From IMG/VR virus record IMGVR_UViG_3300045988_149535, positions 1-42,192 of that record: a stretch of 42,192 nucleotides of DNA, one strand, 5' to 3'. This stretch comes from a virus. The position numbers and the translations under genes were made by a program. Below are positions 3,921 through 38,390 of this stretch, in pieces. Under the pieces are notes generated by a model. The model had not been told where the DNA came from. It did no database searches and saw only the letters and a list, made by a program, of their open reading frames with translations. Every line of letters starts with the position of its first letter. The first letter of the stretch is position 1.

Positions 3921-5948
3921 ATGAATATTAAGTCTAATATTACTAATGTTACAAACAAAAGCATAAAAAAGCTTATAACAATAAACAACTATAAAGAAGG
4001 TATATGCGAATATATATGGAATAGTTTTGATGCAGAAGCTACGGTAGTTGATATAAAATTTATTTATAATGAACTACATGAAATTGAGTCAATTATAATA
4101 TCTGACAATGGAATAGGTATTAATCGTAAAAGTTTAGACAAAACATTTGGGAGCTTGCTTGAATCTATTAAAGAGAATAAAACAAAAGATTTAGATAGTA
4201 ATGTACATGGGCATAAAGGAAAAGGAAGATATTCATTTATTAAGTTTTCAGAAGAAGCTATTTGGAGTACAATATACAACTCAGGATTAAAGAATATGAA
4301 ATACGAAATAAAAATAACAAGGGATAATTGTATAGAGTATATACCAACTGATGAAGAAAAAACATCTGAACATACTGGAACTAAAGTTATATTAAATAAA
4401 GTTAGTTCTATTAATAAAGAAGATTTAAATGGAAAATTTCAAGAATATTTATCAAATAGATTTGCATGGTTTTTATACTTAAAAAAAGGAAAATCAAGCG
4501 AAAGTAAAATAATAGTAAATGGCAAAGAAATAGATTATTTAAAAAATATTGATAGAAATTTTTCAGAGCAAATTATAGAAGTAATAAATGATAATATATT
4601 TACTATTGATGTGATTAAATGGAATCATAAACAAAATGAGTATTTTCATTCTTTCTTTTTAGATGAAAATTTAAATCAAGTATATAAAAATACGACAGGA
4701 TTTAATAATAAATCTTATGCATTTCCACATAATATATACATCAAATCTAATTACTTTAACGATTTTGTTCCAGCCTTACAGAATAATGATGGTCAAGAAG
4801 TATTTAATTTAGATAAAAATCCTAATGATAAAACTTTTATAGAATTAGAGAAAACAATCTATAAATTATTAGAAAGAAAGACTAAAGAGTTTTTGAAATA
4901 TAATGCTAAAAATAAAATAGTTAATCTTGAAGAAAAAGGATACATGCCTAAGTTTAAAGATAATAAATATGAAAAAATTAGGAAGGACGATTTTATAGAG
5001 GTTTTAGAGGAATTACTAGTAATAAAGCCTGATTTATTTAATAGTAAAAAGAGTGATACTAAACTTATATTAGAATTTATTAATTTGATTCTTGATACTG
5101 ATGAAAGGGAGGGAATATTGAATATTATGGATGATTTAATTAAATTAACTCCTGAAGAAAGAGAAAATCTATATAAGGTTTTAAAGAAAACTACATTAAA
5201 GAAAATAATAAGAACAGTTTCATCTATTCAAGACAGACTACAAGTGATTAATATACTTAAAATGTTAGTGTACGAATATGATAAATTTACTAATGAAAGA
5301 GATCATATTCAAGTAATTATTGAAAATAATTATTGGTTATTTGGAGAAGAATATAATATGGTATCTGCTGATAGAGATTTCAATTATTGTAGACAAAAGT
5401 ATCTTGAAATTACGGAAGGGTTTACAAATGAAATAGATAAAAATAAAAATCCTTCTTATAGAAGAAGACCAGATATTTTCATAACAAGAAAAAGACTTGT
5501 TGGATATGCAGAAAGTACTATGAATGAAGAAAATATTATAGTGGAGTTAAAAGCTCCAAATGTTATCATTAATAAGACTATATATAGACAAATCGAAGAT
5601 TATATGGACATTATATCAACAGATGATAAATTCAATAGTCAAATAAGAATTTGGAAATTTATTATAGTAGGAAAAACTTTAGATGAAAACATAAAGAAAG
5701 AGCATAGCAATTGGAGTGATAAAGGGAAACGATTTTTAGTTAAAAAATCAGGTAATTACGAAATATATGCTATGACATGGGACGATTTATTTAAATCATT
5801 TGAATTGAATAATAGATATATTTTAGAAAACTTAGATATTGATACTGAAAAATTGTCTCTAGAAATAGGTGATAATAAAATAAAGGATAAAGAGTTTGTT
5901 GATTCATTGGTTAAAGATATTATAGATATGAAGAATGAGTTAGTATAG
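3921..5948 (+). CDS. GHKL (Bergerat-fold) ATPase fused to a DUF4263/Shedu(SduA)-like PD-(D/E)XK nuclease domain; candidate prophage-encoded defence protein
   Basis: N-terminal motifs: EYIWNSFDAEA (N box ExxxNxxDA, aa 30-40), SDNGIGI (DxGxG, aa 61-67) and GHKGKGRYSF (G2 box, aa 97-106). C-terminal motifs: NYWLFGEEY (aa 470-478), RRRPD518IFI, IIVE542LK544AP and RQIEDY, which is the layout of a D...ExK nuclease core. GGAG RBS. Confidence 0.8.
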   Translation: MNIKSNITNVTNKSIKKLITINNYKEGICEYIWNSFDAEATVVDIKFIYNELHEIESIIISDNGIGINRKSLDKTFGSLLESIKENKTKDLDSNVHGHKGKGRYSFIKFSEEAIWSTIYNSGLKNMKYEIKITRDNCIEYIPTDEEKTSEHTGTKVILNKVSSINKEDLNGKFQEYLSNRFAWFLYLKKGKSSESKIIVNGKEIDYLKNIDRNFSEQIIEVINDNIFTIDVIKWNHKQNEYFHSFFLDENLNQVYKNTTGFNNKSYAFPHNIYIKSNYFNDFVPALQNNDGQEVFNLDKNPNDKTFIELEKTIYKLLERKTKEFLKYNAKNKIVNLEEKGYMPKFKDNKYEKIRKDDFIEVLEELLVIKPDLFNSKKSDTKLILEFINLILDTDEREGILNIMDDLIKLTPEERENLYKVLKKTTLKKIIRTVSSIQDRLQVINILKMLVYEYDKFTNERDHIQVIIENNYWLFGEEYNMVSADRDFNYCRQKYLEITEGFTNEIDKNKNPSYRRRPDIFITRKRLVGYAESTMNEENIIVELKAPNVIINKTIYRQIEDYMDIISTDDKFNSQIRIWKFIIVGKTLDENIKKEHSNWSDKGKRFLVKKSGNYEIYAMTWDDLFKSFELNNRYILENLDIDTEKLSLEIGDNKIKDKEFVDSLVKDIIDMKNELV

Positions 5949-6854: not shown

Positions 6855-6953
6855 ATGATTAAGAATTTTGATAATAAATCTCTTGAAGAGTTAAAAATAG
6901 AAGGAGAAAATAAACTCTTCTTTATTCATACGTTCGGATGTCCGTTAGTATAA
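6855..6953 (+). CDS. Micro-ORF, 32 aa (MIKNFDNKSLEELKIEGENKLFFIHTFGCPLV); looks like a truncated N-terminus of a Cys-motif protein
   Basis: GGAGG RBS. The ORF stops right after GCPLV. It converges on the end of int and overlaps the candidate attP core. Confidence 0.4.
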   Translation: MIKNFDNKSLEELKIEGENKLFFIHTFGCPLV

Positions 6954-6955
6954 AA
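6924..6955. other. Candidate attP core for the serine integrase (imperfect inverted repeat around the central TG at 6939-6940)
   Basis: The left arm attcatacgttcgga and the reverse complement of the right arm tccgttagtataaaa match at 10 of 15 positions, with the cgga/tccg core perfect. Lies immediately downstream of int. Confidence 0.25.
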
Positions 6956-6985
6956 AAAGAGGATTTTCTTTAATAAGAAAACCCT
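6951..6985 (-). terminator. Intrinsic terminator of the integrase gene (minus strand)
   Basis: Minus-strand hairpin agggttttc/gaaaatcct (one G-U pair) that includes the int stop codon, followed by a T7 run. Confidence 0.7.
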
Positions 6986-8583
6986 ATATTTAAGCCATTC
7001 TTGAATGTGATAGATGTTATTTTTTTATCTAATATATAAATTTCTTTAATAAATGAATTAAAAAATTCTTTTAAAGATTCTCTTTTTAATAATTTAATGG
7101 CGGTTTTGTTATCTACGTTTTTTAAGATTATTTCATTCAAAACTGTATTTAATAATATGGTATCTAATTTTATTTCTTCACTATCTTTATTTTCTAATTT
7201 CATTTCTTCATTTATTTTATTTATATTATCCTGTATTTCTTTTTTCTTTAAAACATAGTCTTTGCTAGACATACTATCTTCATCAAACAAATATAATTCT
7301 TCTAATCTTTTTAAAGCTCTTTTATATTTTTCTAATTCTTTAATTTTTAAATCTAAATTAGAACTTTTGTTGTAATTTTTATTATTAAATGAATAGAAAC
7401 CATGCTTTTTATTTATCATAATATCAAATAAATCTTCACATTTTATTTCCTTAACTCCTAGATTTCTAGAAAGTAAATCGATAAATTCTAAATAATCTAT
7501 TCTATTTTTGCTGTTTATAGAACTTATATTTCTAAGTAACGATGTTATAAAATTATATATAATTTTTTCACTAACAGTTTTCTCTTCACAATTATTTTTA
7601 TTATATCTATTGCTACATACGTATAAAGAGGGCCTAAAACCATCTAAGTGAGGTTTATCTTGTTTAGCATAATAATTCCCCATACAAGAACCACATTTTA
7701 TTAAACCAGCAAATATATGTGTTTTCCCATTAGCTCTAAATTTAGAATTACTTCTTAAAGAATTTCTATCCATTATGTCATTACATTTATTGAAAATCTC
7801 TTTAGAAATTATTGGGGGGTGATTATCTTCTAGCACTACCCATTCATCTTCACTTTTCTTCTTGCCTCTAGCAGATTCTCTGTAATTATACCTATAAGTA
7901 CCTATATAGAATGGATTTCTAATTATATCTGTTATAGTTTTAGTAGTCCATCTTCCATTTCTTTTTGTTTTTATATTATTAGCATTTAAAATATTTCTAA
8001 CTATAGAAGTGGATTCTTCTGTTAAATAAGTATTAAATATAAGTTCTATTGTATTTTTTTCTTCTTTGTTTATAATTGGAAACTTAATTTTGCTATCCCA
8101 TTTATAACCTAATGGTATAGGAGAACCGTTCCACATACCTTTACTAGCTCTATCTAACATTACTGATTTAACTCTTTCGCCAGTAAGTTTTCTTTCTAAT
8201 TCAGCAAATACTAATATTATCTTAAGCATAGCTTCACCCATTGCAGAGGAAGTGTCAAATTGTTCATTCTTACTTACAAAGATGCAATTGCATCTTTTTA
8301 ATTCTTCATACATATCACAAAAATCTAATAAATTTCTTGAAATTCTATCTATTTTCCATACTAATAAATGTGAAAACTCGCCAGCTTTTATTCTTTTTAT
8401 CATATCTTGAAAAGCCGGTCTATCTGTATTTTTACCAGAATATCCTGCATCTTCAAAAACCTCATAATTATTTGTATTTAAAATATACTTAGAATAGTTT
8501 ATAAGCTCTTCTCGCTGTAATGGTAAAGAATCCTTATCAATTTGATGATGAGTTGAAACTCTAGTGTAAATTGCTACTTTCAT
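6970..8583 (-). CDS. int: Large serine recombinase (phage integrase)
   Basis: The N-terminus MKVAIYTRVSTHHQ...SLPLQ is a resolvase catalytic domain. This is followed by a recombinase domain, a zinc ribbon (CGSCMGNYY...YVCSNRYNKNNC) and a C-terminal coiled coil. 537 aa. Confidence 0.95.
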   Translation of the reverse strand: MKVAIYTRVSTHHQIDKDSLPLQREELINYSKYILNTNNYEVFEDAGYSGKNTDRPAFQDMIKRIKAGEFSHLLVWKIDRISRNLLDFCDMYEELKRCNCIFVSKNEQFDTSSAMGEAMLKIILVFAELERKLTGERVKSVMLDRASKGMWNGSPIPLGYKWDSKIKFPIINKEEKNTIELIFNTYLTEESTSIVRNILNANNIKTKRNGRWTTKTITDIIRNPFYIGTYRYNYRESARGKKKSEDEWVVLEDNHPPIISKEIFNKCNDIMDRNSLRSNSKFRANGKTHIFAGLIKCGSCMGNYYAKQDKPHLDGFRPSLYVCSNRYNKNNCEEKTVSEKIIYNFITSLLRNISSINSKNRIDYLEFIDLLSRNLGVKEIKCEDLFDIMINKKHGFYSFNNKNYNKSSNLDLKIKELEKYKRALKRLEELYLFDEDSMSSKDYVLKKKEIQDNINKINEEMKLENKDSEEIKLDTILLNTVLNEIILKNVDNKTAIKLLKRESLKEFFNSFIKEIYILDKKITSITFKNGLNIGFSY

Positions 8584-8619
8584 TTTTAAATACCTCCCAT
8601 ATATAAAAGAAAGATGAGA

Positions 8620-9018
8620 TTACTCATCTTCCTCATTTGGTTGAATTATGTAACTTAAATCTGCTTTGATTGCTGCTATAAATAAAGTTTCAGCAACATT
8701 TTTAGGCTCATAATCCTTAAATAAAGAATCTAGGTCATTAACCAGTTTAAGCTCTTTAATTTGTTCAATTACAGTTCTAGTAGATTTTGCAATATCTCTA
8801 GTTTTTCTATATTCTTCATCACTGATTCCATATAACCAATATTCTTCTGGTTTACCTGAATCAGCAACTAGAGAATAAAGAAATTTTTTACTAGGTTTTC
8901 TACTGCCGTTTTCAACCATAGTATAAGCACTAGGAAGAACTTCTAATCTACTAGCCATTTCTTTTTTGTTTAGATTTAACCCTTCTCTATATTCGGTTAA
9001 TCTTTCTGTAAAGTTCAT
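8620..9018 (-). CDS. CI-like repressor (XRE-family HTH, no S24 peptidase domain)
   Basis: ATG at 9018 with a GAGGTG RBS. HTH region: LNLNKKEMASRLEVLPSAYTMVENGSRKPS. Divergent from the cro-like gene. The upstream extension in the ORF track (to 9192) runs through the operators and is rejected. Confidence 0.85.
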   Translation of the reverse strand: MNFTERLTEYREGLNLNKKEMASRLEVLPSAYTMVENGSRKPSKKFLYSLVADSGKPEEYWLYGISDEEYRKTRDIAKSTRTVIEQIKELKLVNDLDSLFKDYEPKNVAETLFIAAIKADLSYIIQPNEEDE

Positions 9019-9036
9019 ATTCAACACCTCGTATTC

Positions 9037-9065
9037 ATTATATAATAACTTCACATTTTTGTAAA
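9037..9065 (-). promoter_or_regulatory. Repressor promoter (minus strand) TTTACA-17-TATAAT
   Basis: The reverse complement reads TTTACA (9065-9060), a 17-nt spacer, then TATAAT (9042-9037), just upstream of the cI RBS. Confidence 0.6.
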
Positions 9066-9068
9066 GCA

Positions 9069-9088
9069 AATTCACAAAATAGTACATT
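9069..9088. promoter_or_regulatory. Operator O1 (imperfect): AATTCAC-N6-GTACATT
   Basis: Shares gcaaattcacaaaa with O3. The right half-site has 2 mismatches. Abuts the -35 of the repressor promoter. Confidence 0.55.
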
Positions 9089-9112
9089 CTAATACTGAAA
9101 ATGGTTCGACGA

Positions 9113-9132
9113 AATTCACGGAAACGTGAATT
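9113..9132. promoter_or_regulatory. Operator O2: perfect palindrome AATTCAC-ggaaac-GTGAATT
   Basis: Perfect 7+7 inverted repeat with a 6-nt spacer in the cI/cro intergenic region. Confidence 0.75.
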
Positions 9133-9209
9133 AATTTGAAGAAATTTAAAGGAAAACCAAGTAAAATAAGAATATATTGCTATTTTGAGCAAATATGATT
9201 AAAAAAGCA

Positions 9210-9229
9210 AATTCACAAAAGTGTGAATT
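9210..9229. promoter_or_regulatory. Operator O3: perfect palindrome AATTCAC-aaaagt-GTGAATT
   Basis: Same half-sites as O2. Overlaps the -35 and spacer of the cro promoter. Confidence 0.75.
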
Positions 9230-9240
9230 GGTGATATTAT
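9212..9240 (+). promoter_or_regulatory. Early rightward promoter TTCACA-17-TGaTATTAT
   Basis: TTCACA 9212-9217 and TATTAT 9235-9240, with a TG extended -10 at 9232-9233. Drives cro and the early operon. Confidence 0.6.
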
Positions 9241-9263
9241 GAATGTGCGAGGAGGTGAAGGGG

Positions 9264-9452
9264 ATGACACTTAAGGAAATGCGATTAGAAAGTGGTCTTA
9301 AAGCTAATAAGATAGCTGAGAAATTAAACATTTCCAGAAGGCAACTTGTTAATTTAGAACAAAAGAAATTCAAGCTTTCGGAAGATAAAGTTGAAATTCT
9401 ATCAAAACTTTATGAGAAAGATAAAGAAGAGATAAGAAAGGCTGGAAAGTAA
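9264..9452 (+). CDS. Cro-like XRE-family HTH regulator
   Basis: ATG 9264 preceded by GAGGAGGTGAAGGGG, which favours it over ATG 9243. HTH region: LKANKIAEKLNISRRQLVNLEQ. Confidence 0.85.
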   Translation: MTLKEMRLESGLKANKIAEKLNISRRQLVNLEQKKFKLSEDKVEILSKLYEKDKEEIRKAGK

Positions 9453-9503
9453 ATGAGTGAAGCAGAAAGAAAATTATATGAATTATTAAAGAAGGTGGCT
9501 TAA
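9453..9503 (+). CDS. Micro-ORF, 16 aa (MSEAERKLYELLKKVA), paralogue of 6721-6786
   Basis: Starts 1 nt after the cro stop and ends where the next ORF starts. Confidence 0.4.
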   Translation: MSEAERKLYELLKKVA

Positions 9504-9641
9504 ATGGATATGAAAGCAATAGAAGGTTTTCTGATAAATATATGTGGTTATAAATCTATTGAAGATGCCAAGGAAAATTATAAGCCTTTAAATTTTTATC
9601 CTTTAATAGGAGAAATTGATTTTAAAAAGGAGGAGAAGTAA
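9504..9641 (+). CDS. Hypothetical protein, 45 aa
   Basis: ATG 9504 abuts the preceding stop. Its TAA overlaps the ATG of the next gene (TAATG). Too short to appear in the ORF track. Confidence 0.5.
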   Translation: MDMKAIEGFLINICGYKSIEDAKENYKPLNFYPLIGEIDFKKEEK

Positions 9642-10414
9642 TGAATAATTTAATAAAAATTAATGGATTAGTAAATATTGAAGGAATGCAATTCCATAAC
9701 ATAGAAGGTGGATTTGGTAAAGGTAAGAAAGCAATGTTAGCTAAAGAAATTGCTGAAATACACGGAAGAGAGCTAAAGTTTATAAATCAAAATATTAATA
9801 GAAATATAAAAAGATTTACAGAAGGGCTTGATATTGTTGATTTAAAAGGAACTCAATTCGAGGTAACTTTGAGCAACCACGGAATTTATACTCAAAATTC
9901 AATAAATGCAAGTAATAATATCTATTTATTATCAGAAAGAGGATACTCAAAACTTCTTAAAATTTTAGAAGATGATGTTGCTTGGGAGCAATATGAAAAG
10001 TTGGTTGATGGATATTTTAATATGAGGGGACAAGCCTTAAATACATCTAAATTATCTAAAGAACTTCAAGCAATATTAATGTTAGATGAGAAAACTGTTG
10101 AAATGGATAATAGAATAACAACTCTAGAAGAAAGAATGACAATAGAAACAGGAGCGCAAAAAGTTTTGCAAGATTTAGTTAATAAAAAGGTAATGGCTAT
10201 ATTAGGTGGTAAAGATAGTCCAGCTTATAAGGAGTTAGGTAATAAGACATTTAGACAATGTTGGAAGAACTTTAAAGATATTTTACAAGTAGCTTCTTAT
10301 AAAGATACACCAGTAAAGGACTTTGATTTAGCAAAGAAAACAATAATAGATTGGCAACCTAATAGAGAGCTAGAGTTGATGATAATGGGTTGTAATGCTC
10401 AAATAAGAATGTAG
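9641..10414 (+). CDS. ORF6N/ORF6C-domain protein (antirepressor-like)
   Basis: The N-terminus LIKINGLVNIEGMQFHNIEGGFGKGKKAMLAKEIAEIHGRELKFINQNINRN is typical of the ORF6N domain. The C-terminal part resembles ORF6C. AGGAGGAG RBS. Confidence 0.8.
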   Translation: MNNLIKINGLVNIEGMQFHNIEGGFGKGKKAMLAKEIAEIHGRELKFINQNINRNIKRFTEGLDIVDLKGTQFEVTLSNHGIYTQNSINASNNIYLLSERGYSKLLKILEDDVAWEQYEKLVDGYFNMRGQALNTSKLSKELQAILMLDEKTVEMDNRITTLEERMTIETGAQKVLQDLVNKKVMAILGGKDSPAYKELGNKTFRQCWKNFKDILQVASYKDTPVKDFDLAKKTIIDWQPNRELELMIMGCNAQIRM

Positions 10415-10426
10415 GAGGAATTTGAA

Positions 10427-10645
10427 ATGACAAATAAAGGAATGAAAGAAATATTAGAAAGAAAGTTAATTTTTTTATCAGATATGCTTGAAGTTTGTGA
10501 GGAGGAACATATAGAAAGTATTACTAGATCTATGCTAATGATTTATGAAACTTTAAATAATGGACAAGTAACAGAAATAAGAACAGCAATAGACGGAAAT
10601 ATTATTGCAGATTTTATAAAGGGAGGAAAAAATAAAAATGGATAA
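10427..10645 (+). CDS. Hypothetical protein
   Basis: AGGAGG RBS. Early operon. No recognisable family. Confidence 0.65.
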   Translation: MTNKGMKEILERKLIFLSDMLEVCEEEHIESITRSMLMIYETLNNGQVTEIRTAIDGNIIADFIKGGKNKNG

Positions 10646-33910: not shown

Positions 33911-34255
33911 ATGATAATTAATGGAGTTGAATTAGACGATTTAAACGGACTTGACTACGAAACAGCTCAAAAAGTTGAAAAAGAAATGGAAAAAACTCAA
34001 GGACTTGGAGATAAAGTTCCAAAATTAAAAAATTCAGAAGGTATTAGAGTTATATGTGATACTGTTAATGAAATATTTGATAATATTTTCGGAGAAGGAA
34101 CTTCTGAAAAAGTATTTAAAGGGAAAAAAGACTTAAAAATATCAATGATAGCTTTTGAAGAATTATGTAAAAATTATTATGAAAGTCAAAATTCTATGAA
34201 TGATATGATAAAAAAATACTCTCCTAATAGAGCTGCTAGAAGAAGTAAAAAATAA
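33911..34255 (+). CDS. Tail assembly chaperone (gpG-like)
   Basis: Position between the major tail and tape measure genes. 114 aa. GGGGGA RBS. Confidence 0.6.
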   Translation: MIINGVELDDLNGLDYETAQKVEKEMEKTQGLGDKVPKLKNSEGIRVICDTVNEIFDNIFGEGTSEKVFKGKKDLKISMIAFEELCKNYYESQNSMNDMIKKYSPNRAARRSKK

Positions 34256-34857
34256 TGAATATATTGGTTGATTTATTACCCAAAGAAGTCACTATTAATA
34301 ATAAAAAATATAAAATTAATAGTGATTTTAGAATTTCAATTTTATTTGAAATATTAATGCAAGATAATTCTGTAATAAATGAAGATAAAATAGGGTTAGC
34401 TTTAAATCTTTATTATTATGAAGTTCCTCCTAAAAAATACTGGCAAGAAGCTGTAGAAAAAATGTTATGGTTTTATAGATGTGGTAAAGATATATATTCG
34501 TCAAAAAAAAATGGTAAAGGTAATGGCGCCACTCAAATTTATTCGTTTGAACATGATGATGATTATATTTATGCTGCATTTATGGACCAATATAATTTAG
34601 ACTTGCAAGATATAGACTATTTACATTGGTGGAAGTTTAAAGCTATGTTTAAGAGCCTTAAAGAGGATAATGAAATAGTTAAAATAATGAAATATAGAAG
34701 TATAGATTTGTCTAAAATTAAAGATAAGGAGCAGAAGGCTTATTATAAAGAAATGAAAAACCTTTATAAAATTCCTATTTCTAAAGATGAAGAAATTAAG
34801 CTAAAAGAAATAGAAGAAGCTTTATTAAATGGTGGAGATTTAAGTAAATTATTATAA
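34255..34857 (+). CDS. Gp15-family tail assembly protein (gpT-like position)
   Basis: MNILVDLLPKEVTINNKKYKINSDFRISILFEILMQD is typical of the phage Gp15 family. TAATG overlap with the preceding gene. Confidence 0.65.
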   Translation: MNILVDLLPKEVTINNKKYKINSDFRISILFEILMQDNSVINEDKIGLALNLYYYEVPPKKYWQEAVEKMLWFYRCGKDIYSSKKNGKGNGATQIYSFEHDDDYIYAAFMDQYNLDLQDIDYLHWWKFKAMFKSLKEDNEIVKIMKYRSIDLSKIKDKEQKAYYKEMKNLYKIPISKDEEIKLKEIEEALLNGGDLSKLL

Positions 34858-34882
34858 CCCCCAAAAAAAATATTAATAAAAA

Positions 34883-34911
34883 TTGTAAATTAATATAAAA
34901 AATAGTATTAT
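34883..34911 (+). promoter_or_regulatory. Promoter-like element TTGTAA-17-TATTAT ahead of the tail-module moron
   Basis: Lies in the 90-nt AT-rich gap after the Gp15-family gene. Confidence 0.4.
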
Positions 34912-34947
34912 ATAATTGTATTTTAACTTTTTAAGGGGGGATATGGA

Positions 34948-35169
34948 ATGGGAAATCAAATAGGATGCCCTAAATGTGGAAGTAATAACGTACAAATAGT
35001 AAATGATTCTACTGTAGAAACAAAAGGATTTGGAGCTGGAAAAGGCTGTTTAGGAGCAATATGCTTTGGCCCAATAGGTTTGTTGTGTGGAATGTGTGGA
35101 ATGGGGAAAAGTAAAACAAGCAATAATACATATAGGATGTGTGTAAATTGTGGAGAAAAATTTAAATAA
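34948..35169 (+). CDS. LITAF-like split zinc-ribbon membrane protein (73 aa)
   Basis: CPKCG at the N-terminus and CVNCG at the C-terminus flank a Gly/Cys-rich hydrophobic hairpin (GCLGAICFGPIGLLCGMCGMG). AAGGGGGG RBS. Confidence 0.7.
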   Translation: MGNQIGCPKCGSNNVQIVNDSTVETKGFGAGKGCLGAICFGPIGLLCGMCGMGKSKTSNNTYRMCVNCGEKFK

Positions 35170-35521
35170 ACATTTAAAATTATGGACAAACTTTATGAAG
35201 CTAGGCAGCTACACTTGCCACCAAATTTATGAAAGAAGTTTTTCTTATAGAGGTTATCAATTCCCAATATGTGCTAGATGTACAGGGATTTTTATAGGCC
35301 AAATAATTGGTATTATTCTTATTATTCTAGGATTTAGACTTGAGTTTTTATGGTCTATAGTATTAATTGTCCCTATGTCCATTGATGGATTGATACAATT
35401 AATAAAAATAATGGAATCTAATAATGTCCGCAGATTTATTACTGGTTTTATATCAGGCATAGGATATATGTATTTGTTATTTAATATAGTAGTAATTATT
35501 AAACACTTAGTTTTTGACTAA
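35150..35521 (+). CDS. DUF2085-like polytopic membrane protein
   Basis: CHQIYERSFSYRGYQFPICARCTGIFIGQIIG followed by further TM segments. The start is GTG 35150 or ATG 35195. Confidence 0.7.
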   Translation: MEKNLNKHLKLWTNFMKLGSYTCHQIYERSFSYRGYQFPICARCTGIFIGQIIGIILIILGFRLEFLWSIVLIVPMSIDGLIQLIKIMESNNVRRFITGFISGIGYMYLLFNIVVIIKHLVFD

Positions 35522-35531
35522 GTGTTTTTTT
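35501..35531 (+). terminator. Intrinsic terminator closing the moron
   Basis: Perfect 10-bp stem aaacacttag/ctaagtgttt with a 7-nt loop and a T7 run. Overlaps the stop codon. Confidence 0.85.
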
Positions 35532-35546
35532 ATTTCAAATTAAGAG

Positions 35547-35684
35547 GTGATTGAAATAGAAGATATACGTTGTATAAATTGTAATCAGCTATTATTAAAA
35601 GCTGATTTAGTAAGAGGGGAAATAAAATGCCCTCGCTGTAAAAAAATAAATAAATTAGAAATTGGACGAAAAGACAGAGCTTAG
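35547..35684 (+). CDS. com: Mu Com-like zinc-finger protein (45 aa)
   Basis: IRCINCNQLLLKADLVRGEIKCPRCKKIN closely parallels Mu Com (IRCKNCNKLLFKAD...EIRCPRCK). The start is ambiguous: GTG 35547 overlaps the RBS, and ATA 35556 lies 8 nt after AAGAGG. Confidence 0.65.
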   Translation: MIEIEDIRCINCNQLLLKADLVRGEIKCPRCKKINKLEIGRKDRA

Positions 35685-35753
35685 AGCCACACCTTAGAGT
35701 AGTGAGCCAATGCCTGCTTTTTTTATTTTATAAAGAAAGTAGGTGAGTGGTTA

Positions 35754-38390
35754 ATGAGTGATGGGCGTATAATAATTGACACTGAAATAGATAATAGTGG
35801 TCTTGAAAGTGGTTTAGAGAAAGCTAAGTCAAGTGCTAAATCTCAAGCTGCCAAATTAGCAGCTGAATATAAAAAACAGGGTATGTCAGCTAGCGAAGCA
35901 TTTAAAAAAGCATGGTCTGAAATAGAAAGAGATTCTGATGAAAAATCTAAACAGACATCTGAAAATTGGAAAGCTAATGTTGGTGATAAATTAACTGGAA
36001 TAGCTAAAACTAGTGCCAAAGCTATATCTGGCCTAATAGTTGGAGCAGCAACTGCATTAAGTGGTTTAGCGGCTGCTGCTATAAAAATAGGTTCTGACTT
36101 TGAAGCTCAAATGAGTAGGGTTAAGGCTATATCAGGTGCTACGGCTGATGAGTTTGAAAAATTAAATGAATTAGCAATACAATTAGGTGCTGATACTGCA
36201 TTTAGTGCTTATGAGGCTGCTGAAGGAATGGAAAATCTAGCTTCAGCTGGATTTGATGTTAGTGAAATAATGGATGCTATGCCTGGAATGTTAGATTTAG
36301 CAGCTGCAAGTGGAGAAGATTTAGCAATAAGTTCAGATATAGCGGCTAGTACTCTAAGAGGATTTGGTTTAGCTGCAAGTGAAGCAGGACATGTAGCTGA
36401 TGTTCTTGCCAAAAACGCTGCTGATACAAATGCAGCTGTTTATGATACTGGAGAAGCTATGAAATATGTTGCTCCGGTTGCGGCTTCTTTAGGACTTTCA
36501 TTAGAAGAAGTTACAGCTGCTATAGGTTTAATGGCTAATGCTGGAATACAAGGTTCCCAAGCTGGTACTGCATTAAGAGCTTCTCTTACTAGATTGACTA
36601 AACCTACTGATGCTATGATTACTGCCATGGAAAAAGTAGGTTTTAATGCTTTTGATTCTGAAGGCAAAATGAAAAGCTTAAGCGATATGATTAGTGAGCT
36701 TAAATCTGGAATGGAAGGATGGACTGATGAAGCTAAATCTAATGCTTTAGCTACTATATTCGGAACTGAAGCATTAAGTGGTATGATGGCCTTAATAAAT
36801 GCTGGACCTGAACAAATAGACGCTTTAACTGAAAGTTTAATAAATTCTGATGGAGCTGCTAAAGAATACGCTGAAACTATGCAAGATAATTTAAAAGGTA
36901 ATATTGAAGCTTTAGGTGGTTCTTTAGAAACCTTAGGGATTCAGTTTTATCAAAGTGTTGATACTCCTTTAAATGATATTGTAAGTAGTGCTAATTCTAT
37001 GGTTGATGAATTGTCAAAAGCATTTTCAGAAGGAGGATTTGAAGGATTAGTAAGTCAATTAGGAACTACATTAGCTACTATAGTTACTCAAATTGCAAAT
37101 AGTGCTCCTAAGATGATAGATATTGGAGTAAGTCTGATAAAAAATTTAATAACTGGAATACAAGAAAATCTCCCAGCTATAGCTACTGGTGCTATTGATA
37201 TAGTTATGAGTTTAGTTAATGGAATAATTGAAATACTACCAATGCTTTTAGAGGTAGGATTACAAGCTCTAATAACTTTAGGACAAGGTATTGCTGAATC
37301 CTTACCAACTTTAATTCCAACTTTGGTTAATCTAGTAATATCTATGTGCGATATGATAATAGAAAATTTGCCATTAATATTAGATGTAGCAATAGATATA
37401 ATCTTGGCTTTAGTTCAAGGACTAGTTAATGCTTTACCTACTTTAATTGCAGAAGTACCACGTATTATAAATAGCTTTGCTGATGCTATATATGGAGCAT
37501 TACCAACAATATTAAAGGCTGGTATAGATATAATCGTTATGCTAGTTAAAGGATTGATAGATTCAATCCCTATTATAATTCAGAATTTACCACAAATAAT
37601 AATGGCTATAGTAAATGTATTTACTCTTTTTAATTGGGCTAGTATTGGGAAAAACTTAATTACTGGAATTGGTAATGGTATTAAATCTATGGTATCTAAT
37701 ATAGGAACTATAGCTAAATTTACTGCTGAAAGTGTTATAAATGGAATAAAAGGTATATTTTCGGCAGGTGGAAATATAGGTAAGAATTTAATAAGTTGGA
37801 TTGCTAATGGAGTAAGTAGTTCTTTAGGAAACTTATTGCAAGCAGCTAAAAATGTAGCTATAAGTGCAATTCAAGGTATTAAAAATATTTTAGGATGGAA
37901 TGAGGCTTCAAGTATAGGATCTAATCTTATTAGGGGGATTTGGAGTGGTATTTCTAATATGACTGGCTGGATAATTAACCTTATAGGTGGATTTGCTGGA
38001 AGTGTAATAAGTTCTATAAAAGACTTCTTTGATATACATAGTCCTAGTAGAATTATGGATAAGTTAATTGGGAGAAACCTTGTTAAAGGTATTGGAGTAG
38101 GTATTGATGTTGAAACACCAAATTTAGAAAAAGATATTGATTCTAACATGAGTGATTTAGTTGCTAAAATGAAAGGAACTGTAGATTATGAAACTTCTAT
38201 GACTACAGCTAGAGTTGTTGCTCATAATAATATTTTAAGTAGTGGAACTGATATGGATACTGACAATCCTAAAGAAAATCCTGTAACAGTAATTGCTAAG
38301 TTTATTGTTGATGGTAAAGAATTTGTTCAAGAAGTTGTGGCCCCTAATCAAGATGTATTAAATGATTATTATGAAGGGAGGTTGCCGTAA
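35754..38390 (+). CDS. Tape measure protein
   Basis: 878 aa, Ala/Gly/Ile-rich and helical, with the AFSAYEAAEGMENLASAGF core motif. Lies upstream of the Dit/Tal genes. Confidence 0.92.
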   Translation: MSDGRIIIDTEIDNSGLESGLEKAKSSAKSQAAKLAAEYKKQGMSASEAFKKAWSEIERDSDEKSKQTSENWKANVGDKLTGIAKTSAKAISGLIVGAATALSGLAAAAIKIGSDFEAQMSRVKAISGATADEFEKLNELAIQLGADTAFSAYEAAEGMENLASAGFDVSEIMDAMPGMLDLAAASGEDLAISSDIAASTLRGFGLAASEAGHVADVLAKNAADTNAAVYDTGEAMKYVAPVAASLGLSLEEVTAAIGLMANAGIQGSQAGTALRASLTRLTKPTDAMITAMEKVGFNAFDSEGKMKSLSDMISELKSGMEGWTDEAKSNALATIFGTEALSGMMALINAGPEQIDALTESLINSDGAAKEYAETMQDNLKGNIEALGGSLETLGIQFYQSVDTPLNDIVSSANSMVDELSKAFSEGGFEGLVSQLGTTLATIVTQIANSAPKMIDIGVSLIKNLITGIQENLPAIATGAIDIVMSLVNGIIEILPMLLEVGLQALITLGQGIAESLPTLIPTLVNLVISMCDMIIENLPLILDVAIDIILALVQGLVNALPTLIAEVPRIINSFADAIYGALPTILKAGIDIIVMLVKGLIDSIPIIIQNLPQIIMAIVNVFTLFNWASIGKNLITGIGNGIKSMVSNIGTIAKFTAESVINGIKGIFSAGGNIGKNLISWIANGVSSSLGNLLQAAKNVAISAIQGIKNILGWNEASSIGSNLIRGIWSGISNMTGWIINLIGGFAGSVISSIKDFFDIHSPSRIMDKLIGRNLVKGIGVGIDVETPNLEKDIDSNMSDLVAKMKGTVDYETSMTTARVVAHNNILSSGTDMDTDNPKENPVTVIAKFIVDGKEFVQEVVAPNQDVLNDYYEGRLP

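What the first reader, a model, noticed from the sequence alone, without database searches (positions are those of the whole stretch)
34858..35531. Promoter/terminator-bounded moron inside the tail module: LITAF-like zinc-ribbon membrane protein plus DUF2085 membrane protein
Between the tail chaperone genes and the tape measure gene, where siphophages are normally contiguous, there is:
- A 90-bp AT-rich gap with TTGTAA-17-TATTAT.
- A 73-aa protein whose two CxxC halves (CPKC, CVNC) flank a Gly/Cys-rich hydrophobic hairpin. This is the LITAF/SIMPLE-like topology of a zinc ribbon with an in-plane membrane anchor.
- An overlapping DUF2085-type polytopic membrane protein (CHQ...CARC).
- A perfect 10-bp terminator (35501-35531).

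This is a textbook moron, probably expressed from the prophage. Two membrane proteins with metal-binding motifs suggest a superinfection-exclusion or abortive-infection pair acting at the membrane, for example by blocking DNA injection. I know of no characterised system with this composition.
Basis: partly seen in the sequence, partly recalled or inferred. Interest (0 to 1): 0.65.

Follow-up and report, generated by a model that had tools for sequence, protein, structure and literature searches.

The report
Two-gene membrane cargo in phage tail
A temperate Clostridium phage carries, between two tail genes, a self-contained cassette of two small membrane proteins of unknown function; the same pair is always adjacent in many bacteria and turns up repeatedly in phages.

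Summary
Between the Gp15-type tail gene and the tape measure gene lie:
- a 73-aa zinc-ribbon protein with a Gly/Cys-rich hydrophobic hairpin (a LITAF-like layout, but below Pfam's cut-off);
- an overlapping DUF2085 protein (Pfam E 2e-31);
- a 12-bp hairpin followed by a T run.

New findings:
- The two genes are a strict pair. In 78 of 80 genomes where the small gene was found, DUF2085 follows on the same strand. In the other two, the contig ends right after the small gene in one and the order is reversed in the other. The genomes span Clostridia, Paenibacillus, Treponema, Saccharibacteria and others, and the other neighbours vary.
- Phages carry the pair at several positions. In this slot it occurs in at least four separate lineages of the pair.
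- A decayed prophage next to a tRNA-Leu gene keeps only this cassette intact, with the same upstream region and terminator. That argues for autonomous expression and a benefit to the host.
- dN/dS is 0.04-0.31.

"Moron" is supported. Superinfection exclusion or abortive infection is not: there are no PADLOC hits, the chromosomal neighbours are housekeeping genes, and there is no literature on the pair. The promoter match alone is no better than chance. The slot also holds unrelated cargo in related phages. The biochemical function remains unknown; a complex at the cytoplasmic face of the membrane is the most likely reading.

The parts
34858..34947 (+). Upstream non-coding region of the cassette. 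It holds a sigma-A-like TTGTAA (34883-34888), a 17-nt spacer and TATTAT (34906-34911), with an overlapping TATAAT at 34911, and an SD AAGGGGGG at 34933-34940.
   Evidence: The motif alone is at chance level. About 75 nt including both hexamers are conserved in related phages and in the prophage remnant L106/L107. In the L005 group a deletion leaves TTGTAA-18-TATAAT.
34948..35169 (+). 73-aa zinc-ribbon protein with a Gly/Cys-rich re-entrant hydrophobic hairpin (LITAF-like layout).
   Evidence: Invariant residues: C7, C10, G11, G36, G41, P42, G44, C47, G48, G51, G53, C65, C68, G69. dN/dS is 0.04-0.12.
35150..35521 (+). DUF2085 membrane protein of 123 aa from GTG 35150 (108 aa from ATG 35195). 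It has a CHQ...CARC motif and three transmembrane helices, and overlaps the small gene by 20 nt.
   Evidence: Pfam E 2.3e-31. The AF2 model has pLDDT 92 and pTM 0.81. Invariant residues: C23, H24, R29, S30, P39, C41, A42, R43, C44, T45, G46, D79, Q83, S90, N92, R95, T98, G99, G103. dN/dS is 0.18-0.31.
35501..35534 (+). Intrinsic-terminator-like hairpin (12-bp stem 35501-35527, loop TTT) followed by a T run. The stem spans the DUF2085 stop codon.
   Evidence: dG -12.3, z -5.2; 100% of cells paired, 2 pairs with compensatory changes. It is conserved in the remnant L106.
34255..34857 (+).
   Evidence: PF06854 E 1.7e-57.
35547..35684 (+). Com-like zinc-ribbon ORF between the cassette and the tape measure gene. 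It is context, not part of the conserved pair.
   Evidence: PF10122 29.1 bits. PHROG 'translational regulator'. Absent in L018/L098, and its start is disrupted in L005/L008/L009/L102.
35754..38390 (+). Right flank: the tape measure protein gene.
   Evidence: PF10145 E 1.3e-56.

Best explanation
This is a host-derived, self-contained transcription unit (a moron) in the cargo slot between the Gp15-type gene and the tape measure gene of a temperate Clostridium siphophage. It encodes two proteins that work together in the cytoplasmic membrane.

The first is a 73-aa zinc ribbon. Its two CxxC knuckles stay in the cytoplasm, and its Gly/Cys-rich hairpin dips into the inner leaflet. The second is its obligate partner, a DUF2085 protein with three transmembrane helices. 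Its conserved CH...CxRC knuckle, D79/Q83 and the ESNNxRRxxTG loop also face the cytoplasm.

The overlapping reading frames give coupled translation. The most likely product is a metal-dependent hetero-complex at the cytoplasmic face of the membrane. The cassette is transcribed from its own sigma-A-type promoter in the lysogen and ends at its own terminator. Late transcription has to read through that terminator to reach the tape measure gene.

The same pair is a conserved cellular module in many bacteria. The phage copy therefore most likely supplies that same membrane activity, still uncharacterised, to the lysogen as lysogenic conversion, rather than a phage-specific function.

Shown: the anatomy, the strict pairing, repeated carriage by phages, purifying selection, and retention in a decayed prophage.
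Inferred: the topology, complex formation, metal binding, expression in the lysogen, and any phenotype.
For: - Strict pairing. In 78 of 80 genome loci found through the small protein alone, DUF2085 follows on the same strand, adjacent or overlapping. In the other two, the contig ends in L035 and the order is reversed in L059. The genomes include Clostridium, Paenibacillus, Lachnospiraceae, Treponema, Saccharibacteria, Omnitrophota, Planctomycetota and Mycoplasmatales.
- No third partner. Other neighbours vary, with only lineage-level conserved gene order, for example QueH-pair-FeoAB.
- Phage carriage at several sites. These are the Gp15-TMP slot in the window clade and in L111, L112 and L121; TerL-portal in L101; before the terminase in L110; and next to integrases.
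- Origin. The pair tree puts the window clade next to the chromosomal Clostridium copies, and the slot copies fall in several separate lineages.
- Relic. L106/L107 keep a broken Gp15 fragment plus an intact upstream region, both genes and the terminator, next to tRNA-Leu.
- Selection. dN/dS is 0.04-0.31, similar to Gp15.
- Terminator. It is thermodynamically strong and keeps its pairing through compensatory changes.
- Structure. The DUF2085 model is confident and shows three transmembrane helices.
- Absent from the same slot in phiCD38-2 and the C. perfringens phages, which carry other genes there.
Against: - No transcript data exist.
- The promoter match is 9/12 and at chance level for AT-rich DNA.
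- Cassette GC (0.301) does not differ from the genome (0.291), so there is no compositional sign of foreign origin.
- The small-protein model is poor (pLDDT 59), and no complex could be modelled.
- No structural or sequence relative with a known function was found, so the biochemical activity is open.
- Integrase-adjacent copies could be host flank rather than phage cargo.
- Recurrence in the same tail slot could instead mean a role in the lytic cycle.
Confidence: 0.6

Rival explanations
1. This is a superinfection-exclusion or abortive-infection pair. The two membrane proteins, expressed from the prophage, would block DNA entry of incoming phages or kill the infected cell.
For: - Both proteins are predicted to be membrane proteins.
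- The cassette sits at typical cargo positions in temperate phages, including next to integrases.
- It is retained in a decayed prophage.
- The Gly-zipper hairpin could oligomerise; this is inference.
Against: - There is no hit to any PADLOC model and no literature on the pair.
- Chromosomal copies lie among housekeeping genes in a gene order conserved across genera, not in defence islands.
- The pair is present in reduced genomes such as Saccharibacteria and Mycoplasmatales.
- The sequence is very strongly conserved (dN/dS 0.04-0.12), not the diversifying pattern common in defence genes.
Confidence: 0.2
2. This is a toxin-antitoxin-like addiction module. The small hydrophobic zinc-ribbon protein would be a membrane-damaging toxin and DUF2085 its membrane antidote, or the reverse, stabilising the prophage.
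For: - The two genes are small and overlapping.
- One is a short Gly-zipper membrane peptide.
- The pair occurs on mobile elements.
Against: - It is a single, positionally stable chromosomal pair in many genera.
- It is retained in reduced genomes.
- Both partners are under similar purifying selection.
- The LITAF-like domain also occurs fused into many larger proteins.
- There are no PADLOC hits.
Confidence: 0.08
3. This is a lytic-cycle accessory of the tail module. The pair would be co-transcribed with the late genes and help tail or tape-measure assembly at the membrane, or adjust the membrane before lysis.
For: The pair lies in the same Gp15-TMP slot in four phage lineages whose Gp15 proteins are only 26-51% identical. 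It is on the same strand as the late operon.
Against: - The same pair is a cellular gene pair with no phage genes nearby.
- It sits at other positions in other phages.
- It is absent from close tail-module relatives, which carry unrelated genes in the slot.
- It has its own terminator.
- It survives alone in a decayed prophage.
- The slot copies fall in several separate lineages of the pair.
Confidence: 0.07
4. This is a metal- or thiol-handling membrane module (Zn, Fe, Cu or redox). The many conserved Cys and His residues of both proteins would bind or sense a metal at the membrane, and the phage copy would alter host metal homeostasis. This specifies the function within the best explanation rather than competing with it.
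For: - The small protein has six conserved cysteines, and DUF2085 has a conserved C, H, C, C set.
- In about 20 Lachnospiraceae genomes the pair lies directly upstream of feoA-feoB and downstream of queH.
Against: - The Feo/QueH neighbourhood is confined to one lineage and could simply be inherited gene order.
- No metal-responsive riboswitch or other Rfam element lies upstream.
- CxxC knuckles are usually structural zinc sites.
Confidence: 0.25

Closest known systems
Morons of temperate phages (extra genes with their own promoter and terminator inside late operons, e.g. lambda bor/lom and the HK97/HK022 morons; from my own knowledge of Juhala et al. 2000 and Hendrix et al. 2000)
   Same: - The extra genes lie between two conserved tail genes.
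- They are absent at that position in relatives.
- A promoter-like site lies upstream and a strong terminator downstream.
- They are on the same strand as the late operon.
- They survive as the only intact unit in a decayed prophage.
   Different: - The composition does not deviate from the rest of the genome.
- The cargo is a two-gene cellular module of unknown function.
- Expression in the lysogen has not been shown.
Eukaryotic LITAF/SIMPLE-like domain (Pfam PF10601)
   Same: Two CxxC knuckles are split by a hydrophobic stretch of about 25 residues, too short to cross the membrane twice. Family members reach E 2.3e-7 against PF10601.
   Different: - The window protein scores below Pfam's cut-off (17.1 against 23.8 bits).
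- The hairpin is a Gly-zipper (GxxxG-rich, FGPIGLLCG) rather than the Leu/Cys-rich LITAF hairpin.
- It always has a DUF2085 partner, which LITAF does not.
- Zinc binding and monotopic insertion are untested.
Pfam PF09858 DUF2085 (predicted membrane protein, uncharacterised)
   Same: There is a full-length match (E 2.3e-31) with the conserved CHQ...CARCTG and SNNxRRxxTG motifs.
   Different: Nothing is known about the family's function, and only 3 papers mention it, none on function. DUF2085 also occurs without the small partner, for example beside TypA/BipA in L119-L129.
Cargo genes in the same slot of related phages (phiCD38-2 gp15 with DUF4236; C. perfringens phages BG3P_19 and phiCPE_00022)
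   Same: They occupy the same position between the Gp15 family gene and the tape measure gene. The C. perfringens proteins carry a similar GDILFGPVGALLGG glycine-zipper motif.
   Different: They are single, unrelated genes with no zinc ribbon, no DUF2085 and no Pfam hit.

Membership tests
Pfam PF09858 DUF2085 | The HMM score is at or above the gathering cut-off (25 bits). | tested here: met
   108.5 bits, E 2.3e-31, covering profile positions 1-89 of 90.
Pfam PF09858 DUF2085 | A polytopic membrane protein with the conserved N-terminal Cys/His motif. | tested here: met
   C23, H24, C41 and C44 are invariant in 31 sequences. The AF2 model (pLDDT 92) has helices at 42-59, 66-84 and 92-122.
LITAF-like zinc ribbon (PF10601) | An N-terminal CxxC and a C-terminal CxxC knuckle. 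| tested here: met
   C7xxC10 and C65xxC68 are invariant in 19 sequences.
LITAF-like zinc ribbon (PF10601) | A hydrophobic insert of about 20-27 residues between the knuckles, too short for two membrane passes. | tested here: met
   Residues 27-53, GFGAGKGCLGAICFGPIGLLCGMCGMG, are flanked by Lys on both sides.
LITAF-like zinc ribbon (PF10601) | The HMM score is at or above the gathering cut-off (23.8 bits). | tested here: inconclusive
   The window protein scores 17.1 bits, E 0.006. Nine of 19 homologues hit at E <= 0.01, best 2.3e-7. P0020 and P0022 carry precomputed PF10601 hits.
LITAF-like zinc ribbon (PF10601) | Zinc binding and monotopic (in-plane) membrane insertion. | not testable with these tools
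   The AF2 model of the small protein is poor (pLDDT 59), and there is no solved relative.
Phage moron | Present in this phage and absent at the same junction in related phages. | tested here: met
   phiCD38-2 and the C. perfringens phages have unrelated genes between Gp15 and TMP.
Phage moron | Its own terminator downstream. | tested here: met
Phage moron | Its own promoter upstream. | tested here: inconclusive
   The 9/12 match is at chance level. The region is nevertheless conserved in phages and in the remnant, where it is the only upstream candidate.
Phage moron | Nucleotide composition different from the neighbouring genes. | tested here: not met
   GC is 0.301 against 0.291 for the genome. 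This feature is common but not obligatory.
Phage moron | Expression from the repressed prophage. | not testable with these tools
   The only support is indirect: the cassette stays intact inside a decayed prophage.
Known anti-phage defence or exclusion systems (PADLOC-DB) | A match to a model of a known or candidate defence protein. | tested here: not met
   No hits at E <= 1 for all three small proteins.
Known anti-phage defence or exclusion systems (PADLOC-DB) | Residence in variable defence islands. | tested here: not met
   The chromosomal neighbours are housekeeping or transport genes with lineage-level conserved gene order.
Mu Com zinc ribbon (PF10122), for the adjacent ORF 35547-35684 | The HMM score is at or above the gathering cut-off (22.9 bits). 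| tested here: met
   29.1 bits, E 6.5e-7. phrog_6417 and phrog_13819 also hit.

The most novel reading that the evidence does not exclude
The LITAF-like zinc-ribbon protein and DUF2085 form a previously unrecognised, widely conserved two-component membrane machine of bacteria. Temperate phages capture it repeatedly because its activity changes the cell envelope to the prophage's advantage. That could be by blocking DNA entry of competing phages or by protecting the membrane. The machine would also be the prokaryotic counterpart or ancestor of the eukaryotic LITAF membrane anchor.
Probability: 0.3. Interest if true: 0.75.

Novelty: new variant of a known kind. Interest (0 to 1): 0.5.

Why it matters
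- It gives DUF2085, a large family with no known function, an obligate partner and therefore a handle for experiments.
- It shows that a LITAF-type membrane-inserted zinc ribbon is common in bacteria and phages: about 1,900 cluster representatives in many domain architectures.
- It identifies a cassette that temperate phages of Bacillota pick up repeatedly and that hosts keep after the prophage decays. That is the signature of a lysogenic-conversion function.
- If the function is phage exclusion or membrane protection, it would be a new class. If it is housekeeping, it is still an uncharacterised conserved membrane module that is retained even in Saccharibacteria.

Tried and rejected
- Fold and sequence searches. 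Foldseek of the confident DUF2085 model against the PDB gave nothing (best E 0.74, generic helical bundles). Sequence-profile searches of both proteins against the PDB gave only generic zinc ribbons.
- Family libraries. PADLOC and NCBIfam gave no hits for the pair.
- Regulatory RNA. Rfam found nothing upstream of the pair, in the window or in six loci. The only hit was an unrelated guanidine-I riboswitch in L012.
- Literature. DUF2085 appears in 3 incidental mentions. COG3815 and 'LITAF domain' with 'prokaryotes' returned no papers. 'LITAF-like' returned only eukaryotic papers among the 25 listed.
- A third conserved gene. Clustering the neighbours across 80 loci gave only lineage-specific gene order.
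- L106/L107. I first read this locus as a chromosomal donor of the cassette. I rejected that after finding the broken Gp15 fragment upstream; it is a prophage remnant.
- Compositional anomaly. None was found.
- Small-protein model. It was too poor to use for fold search.
- Complex prediction. It is not possible with the available tool.

Full report
**1. What is in the sequence**

The window is a complete temperate siphophage genome of low GC (0.29). It encodes:
- an endolysin amidase;
- a serine recombinase;
- a CI-like repressor;
- an ORF6N/ORF6C domain protein, read here as an antirepressor;
- a Sipho_tail-domain tail protein (SPP1_Dit in relatives);
- a Prophage_tail-domain tail protein.

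In the tail module, a DUF6673 gene (33911-34255) and a Phage_Gp15 gene (34255-34857) are followed by a 90-bp gap of 19% GC. Next come, in order:
- a 73-aa ORF (34948-35169);
- a DUF2085 ORF (35150 or 35195 to 35521);
- a hairpin with a T run (35501-35534);
- a 45-aa Com-like zinc-ribbon ORF (35547-35684);
- the tape measure gene (35754-38390).

Three refinements apply:
- The promoter-like TTGTAA-17-TATTAT is a 9/12 match, and such matches are as frequent in shuffled sequence (19 found, 20.2 expected).
- The terminator stem is 12 bp. It has dG -12.3 kcal/mol, z -5.2, and none of 200 shuffles folds as well.
- The LITAF-like Pfam match of the 73-aa protein is below the curated cut-off (17.1 against 23.8 bits). 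Nine of 19 homologues match at E <= 0.01, best 2.3e-7.

DUF2085 is unambiguous (E 2.3e-31). The GTG start at 35150 is supported by an N-terminal K..W...M pattern shared with distant homologues, so the two genes overlap by 20 nt.

**2. The two genes are an obligate pair**

Homologues of the small protein in five independent contexts were each followed by DUF2085. I then scanned one genome per species with the small-protein alignment alone, which returned 80 loci.
- A local HMM search found a DUF2085 ORF immediately downstream on the same strand in 78 of them.
- Of the other two, the contig ends right after the small gene in one (L035), and the order is reversed in the other (L059).

The taxa include Clostridium, Paenibacillus, many Lachnospiraceae, Treponema, Saccharibacteria, Omnitrophota, Planctomycetota, Propionibacteriaceae and Mycoplasmatales.

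Clustering all neighbouring ORFs showed no third conserved partner. There is only lineage-level conserved gene order:
- queH-pair-feoAB in about 20 Lachnospiraceae;
- an ECF sigma factor downstream in Anaerocolumna;
- ABC transporter-pair-MCP in the C. beijerinckii group.

The small domain also occurs inside longer proteins. These carry extra N-terminal zinc ribbons or C-terminal transmembrane helices, and DUF2085 still follows them. As a domain it is widespread, with 1,942 cluster representatives at E <= 0.001. DUF2085 can occur without the partner, for example beside TypA/BipA at prophage borders.

**3. Phages carry the pair repeatedly**

Viral contigs and metagenomic relatives show the pair at several positions:
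- in the Gp15-TMP slot of the window's clade and of three more distant phages, whose Gp15 proteins are 50%, 51% and 26% identical to the window's;
- between the large terminase and the portal (L101);
- upstream of the terminase (L110);
- next to tyrosine or serine integrases.

The integrase-adjacent cases could be host flank. The others are clearly phage cargo.

I built a neighbour-joining tree of the concatenated pair. The window clade sits beside the chromosomal Clostridium copies. The slot copies fall into at least four separate lineages. This favours repeated capture into a permissive slot.

The tree rests on short sequences and is only indicative. Related phages without the pair carry other genes in the same slot: DUF4236 in phiCD38-2, and a 168-aa protein with a similar glycine zipper in the C. 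perfringens phages. The slot is therefore a cargo hot spot, not a normally contiguous junction.

**4. Evidence for an autonomous, selected unit**

L106 and L107 are chromosomal loci next to a tRNA-Leu gene (found in L106; in L107 another prophage occupies that side).
- They contain a broken Gp15 fragment (window 34454-34599, 76% identity, with the segment 34600-34821 deleted).
- It is followed by an intact copy of window 34822-35556 at 83.5% identity. That copy holds the upstream region with both hexamers, the SD, both genes and the terminator.
- Homology stops just after the terminator.

So in a decayed prophage the cassette is the only part that has stayed intact, and it brings its own flanking signals. 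This is the best available indirect evidence that it is expressed on its own and is useful to the cell.

Further support:
- dN/dS is 0.04-0.12 for the small gene and 0.18-0.31 for DUF2085. The neighbouring Gp15 gene gives 0.15-0.25.
- The terminator keeps 100% pairing in five distinct sequences, with two pairs changed on both sides.
- In the L005 group a deletion removed the original -35 region, yet it leaves TTGTAA-18-TATAAT.

**5. How it probably works**

The DUF2085 model is confident (pLDDT 92, pTM 0.81). It shows an N-terminal helix, a small beta hairpin between C23-H24 and C41-x-x-C44, and then three transmembrane helices.

By the positive-inside rule (my inference), the N-terminus, the Cys/His knuckle, D79/Q83 and the invariant S90-N92-R95-T98-G99 loop face the cytoplasm.

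The small protein has no signal peptide. It has two CxxC knuckles and lysines on both sides of a 27-residue Gly/Cys-rich stretch. This fits a cytoplasmic zinc ribbon with a re-entrant hairpin. Its model is weak (pLDDT 59), with only the ribbon strands moderately confident.

Strict adjacency, frequent overlap and comparable purifying selection argue for a stoichiometric complex at the cytoplasmic membrane face. Metal binding and complex formation are inferred, not shown.

No solved structure, defence model, curated family or paper gives a function.

**6. Verdict on the interpretation**

"Moron" is supported, apart from composition (GC 0.301 against 0.291) and the lack of direct expression data.

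Superinfection exclusion or abortive infection remains possible, but nothing found here supports it. The pair's conservation at fixed chromosomal positions among housekeeping genes, and its presence in reduced genomes, fit a general membrane function that phages borrow.

I put about 0.6 on the host-derived membrane-complex moron and 0.2 on exclusion or abortive infection. Addiction-module and lytic-accessory readings get less. A metal- or thiol-handling role is a plausible specification of the function.

**7. Side observation**

Directly after the Com-like ORF lies a 15-bp hairpin (35712-35744). Its 3' arm covers the tape measure SD (AGGTGAG at 35741). The 35680-35755 segment containing it folds at -22.8 kcal/mol with z -3.8.

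This resembles the Mu com/mom arrangement, in which Com opens a structure that blocks translation (my own knowledge). However, the Com start is disrupted in several relatives, and the ORF is absent in L018/L098.

Noticed in passing
window 35547-35684 and 35712-35744: A Com-like zinc-ribbon ORF (PF10122; PHROG 'translational regulator') is followed by a 15-bp hairpin whose 3' arm covers the tape measure SD (AGGTGAG at 35741). The layout recalls Mu com/mom translational control. In L005/L008/L009/L102 the GTG start is followed by an in-frame TAA (an ATA start was called in L102). The region is absent in L018/L098.
   Followed up: partly
window 3921-5948: A 675-aa protein with a GHKL-type ATPase domain (HATPase_c_3) lies between the endolysin amidase and the serine integrase. 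This is a typical cargo or defence position at the prophage end.
   Followed up: no
L106 5480-6340 and L107 (same region plus 6939-10623): A prophage remnant lies next to tRNA-Leu (L106 6784-6867, minus strand). It holds a broken Gp15 fragment plus the intact cassette. In L107 a different prophage (tyrosine integrase, repressors, an ORF6N/ORF6C domain protein) is integrated right beside it.
   Followed up: yes
L004 5752-6387; L008 1239-2009; L103 3037-3807: Related phages carry homing-endonuclease genes. A NUMOD3 gene splits the tape measure region in L004. A GIY-YIG/NUMOD3 gene sits among the head-tail genes in L008 and L103.
   Followed up: no
L001 3677-4180; L003 3610-4125: The gene occupying the same Gp15-TMP slot in the C. 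perfringens phages has no Pfam hit. It contains a GDILFGPVGALLGG glycine-zipper motif resembling the hairpin of the 73-aa protein.
   Followed up: partly
L040 5826-6380: In one Lachnoclostridium genome the pair is followed by an ECF sigma factor. After that comes a 185-aa protein with several zinc ribbons and a second, divergent copy of the hairpin zinc-ribbon domain. It may be an anti-sigma factor.
   Followed up: no
L119-L129 (e.g. L119 2833-3183): DUF2085 genes without the small partner lie between TypA/BipA and a Bacteroidetes-type integrase. They are probably host flank included in 'viral' contigs.
   Followed up: partly
L012 7208-7302: A guanidine-I riboswitch (77 bits) lies about 3 kb downstream of a chromosomal copy of the pair and is unrelated to it.
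   Followed up: no
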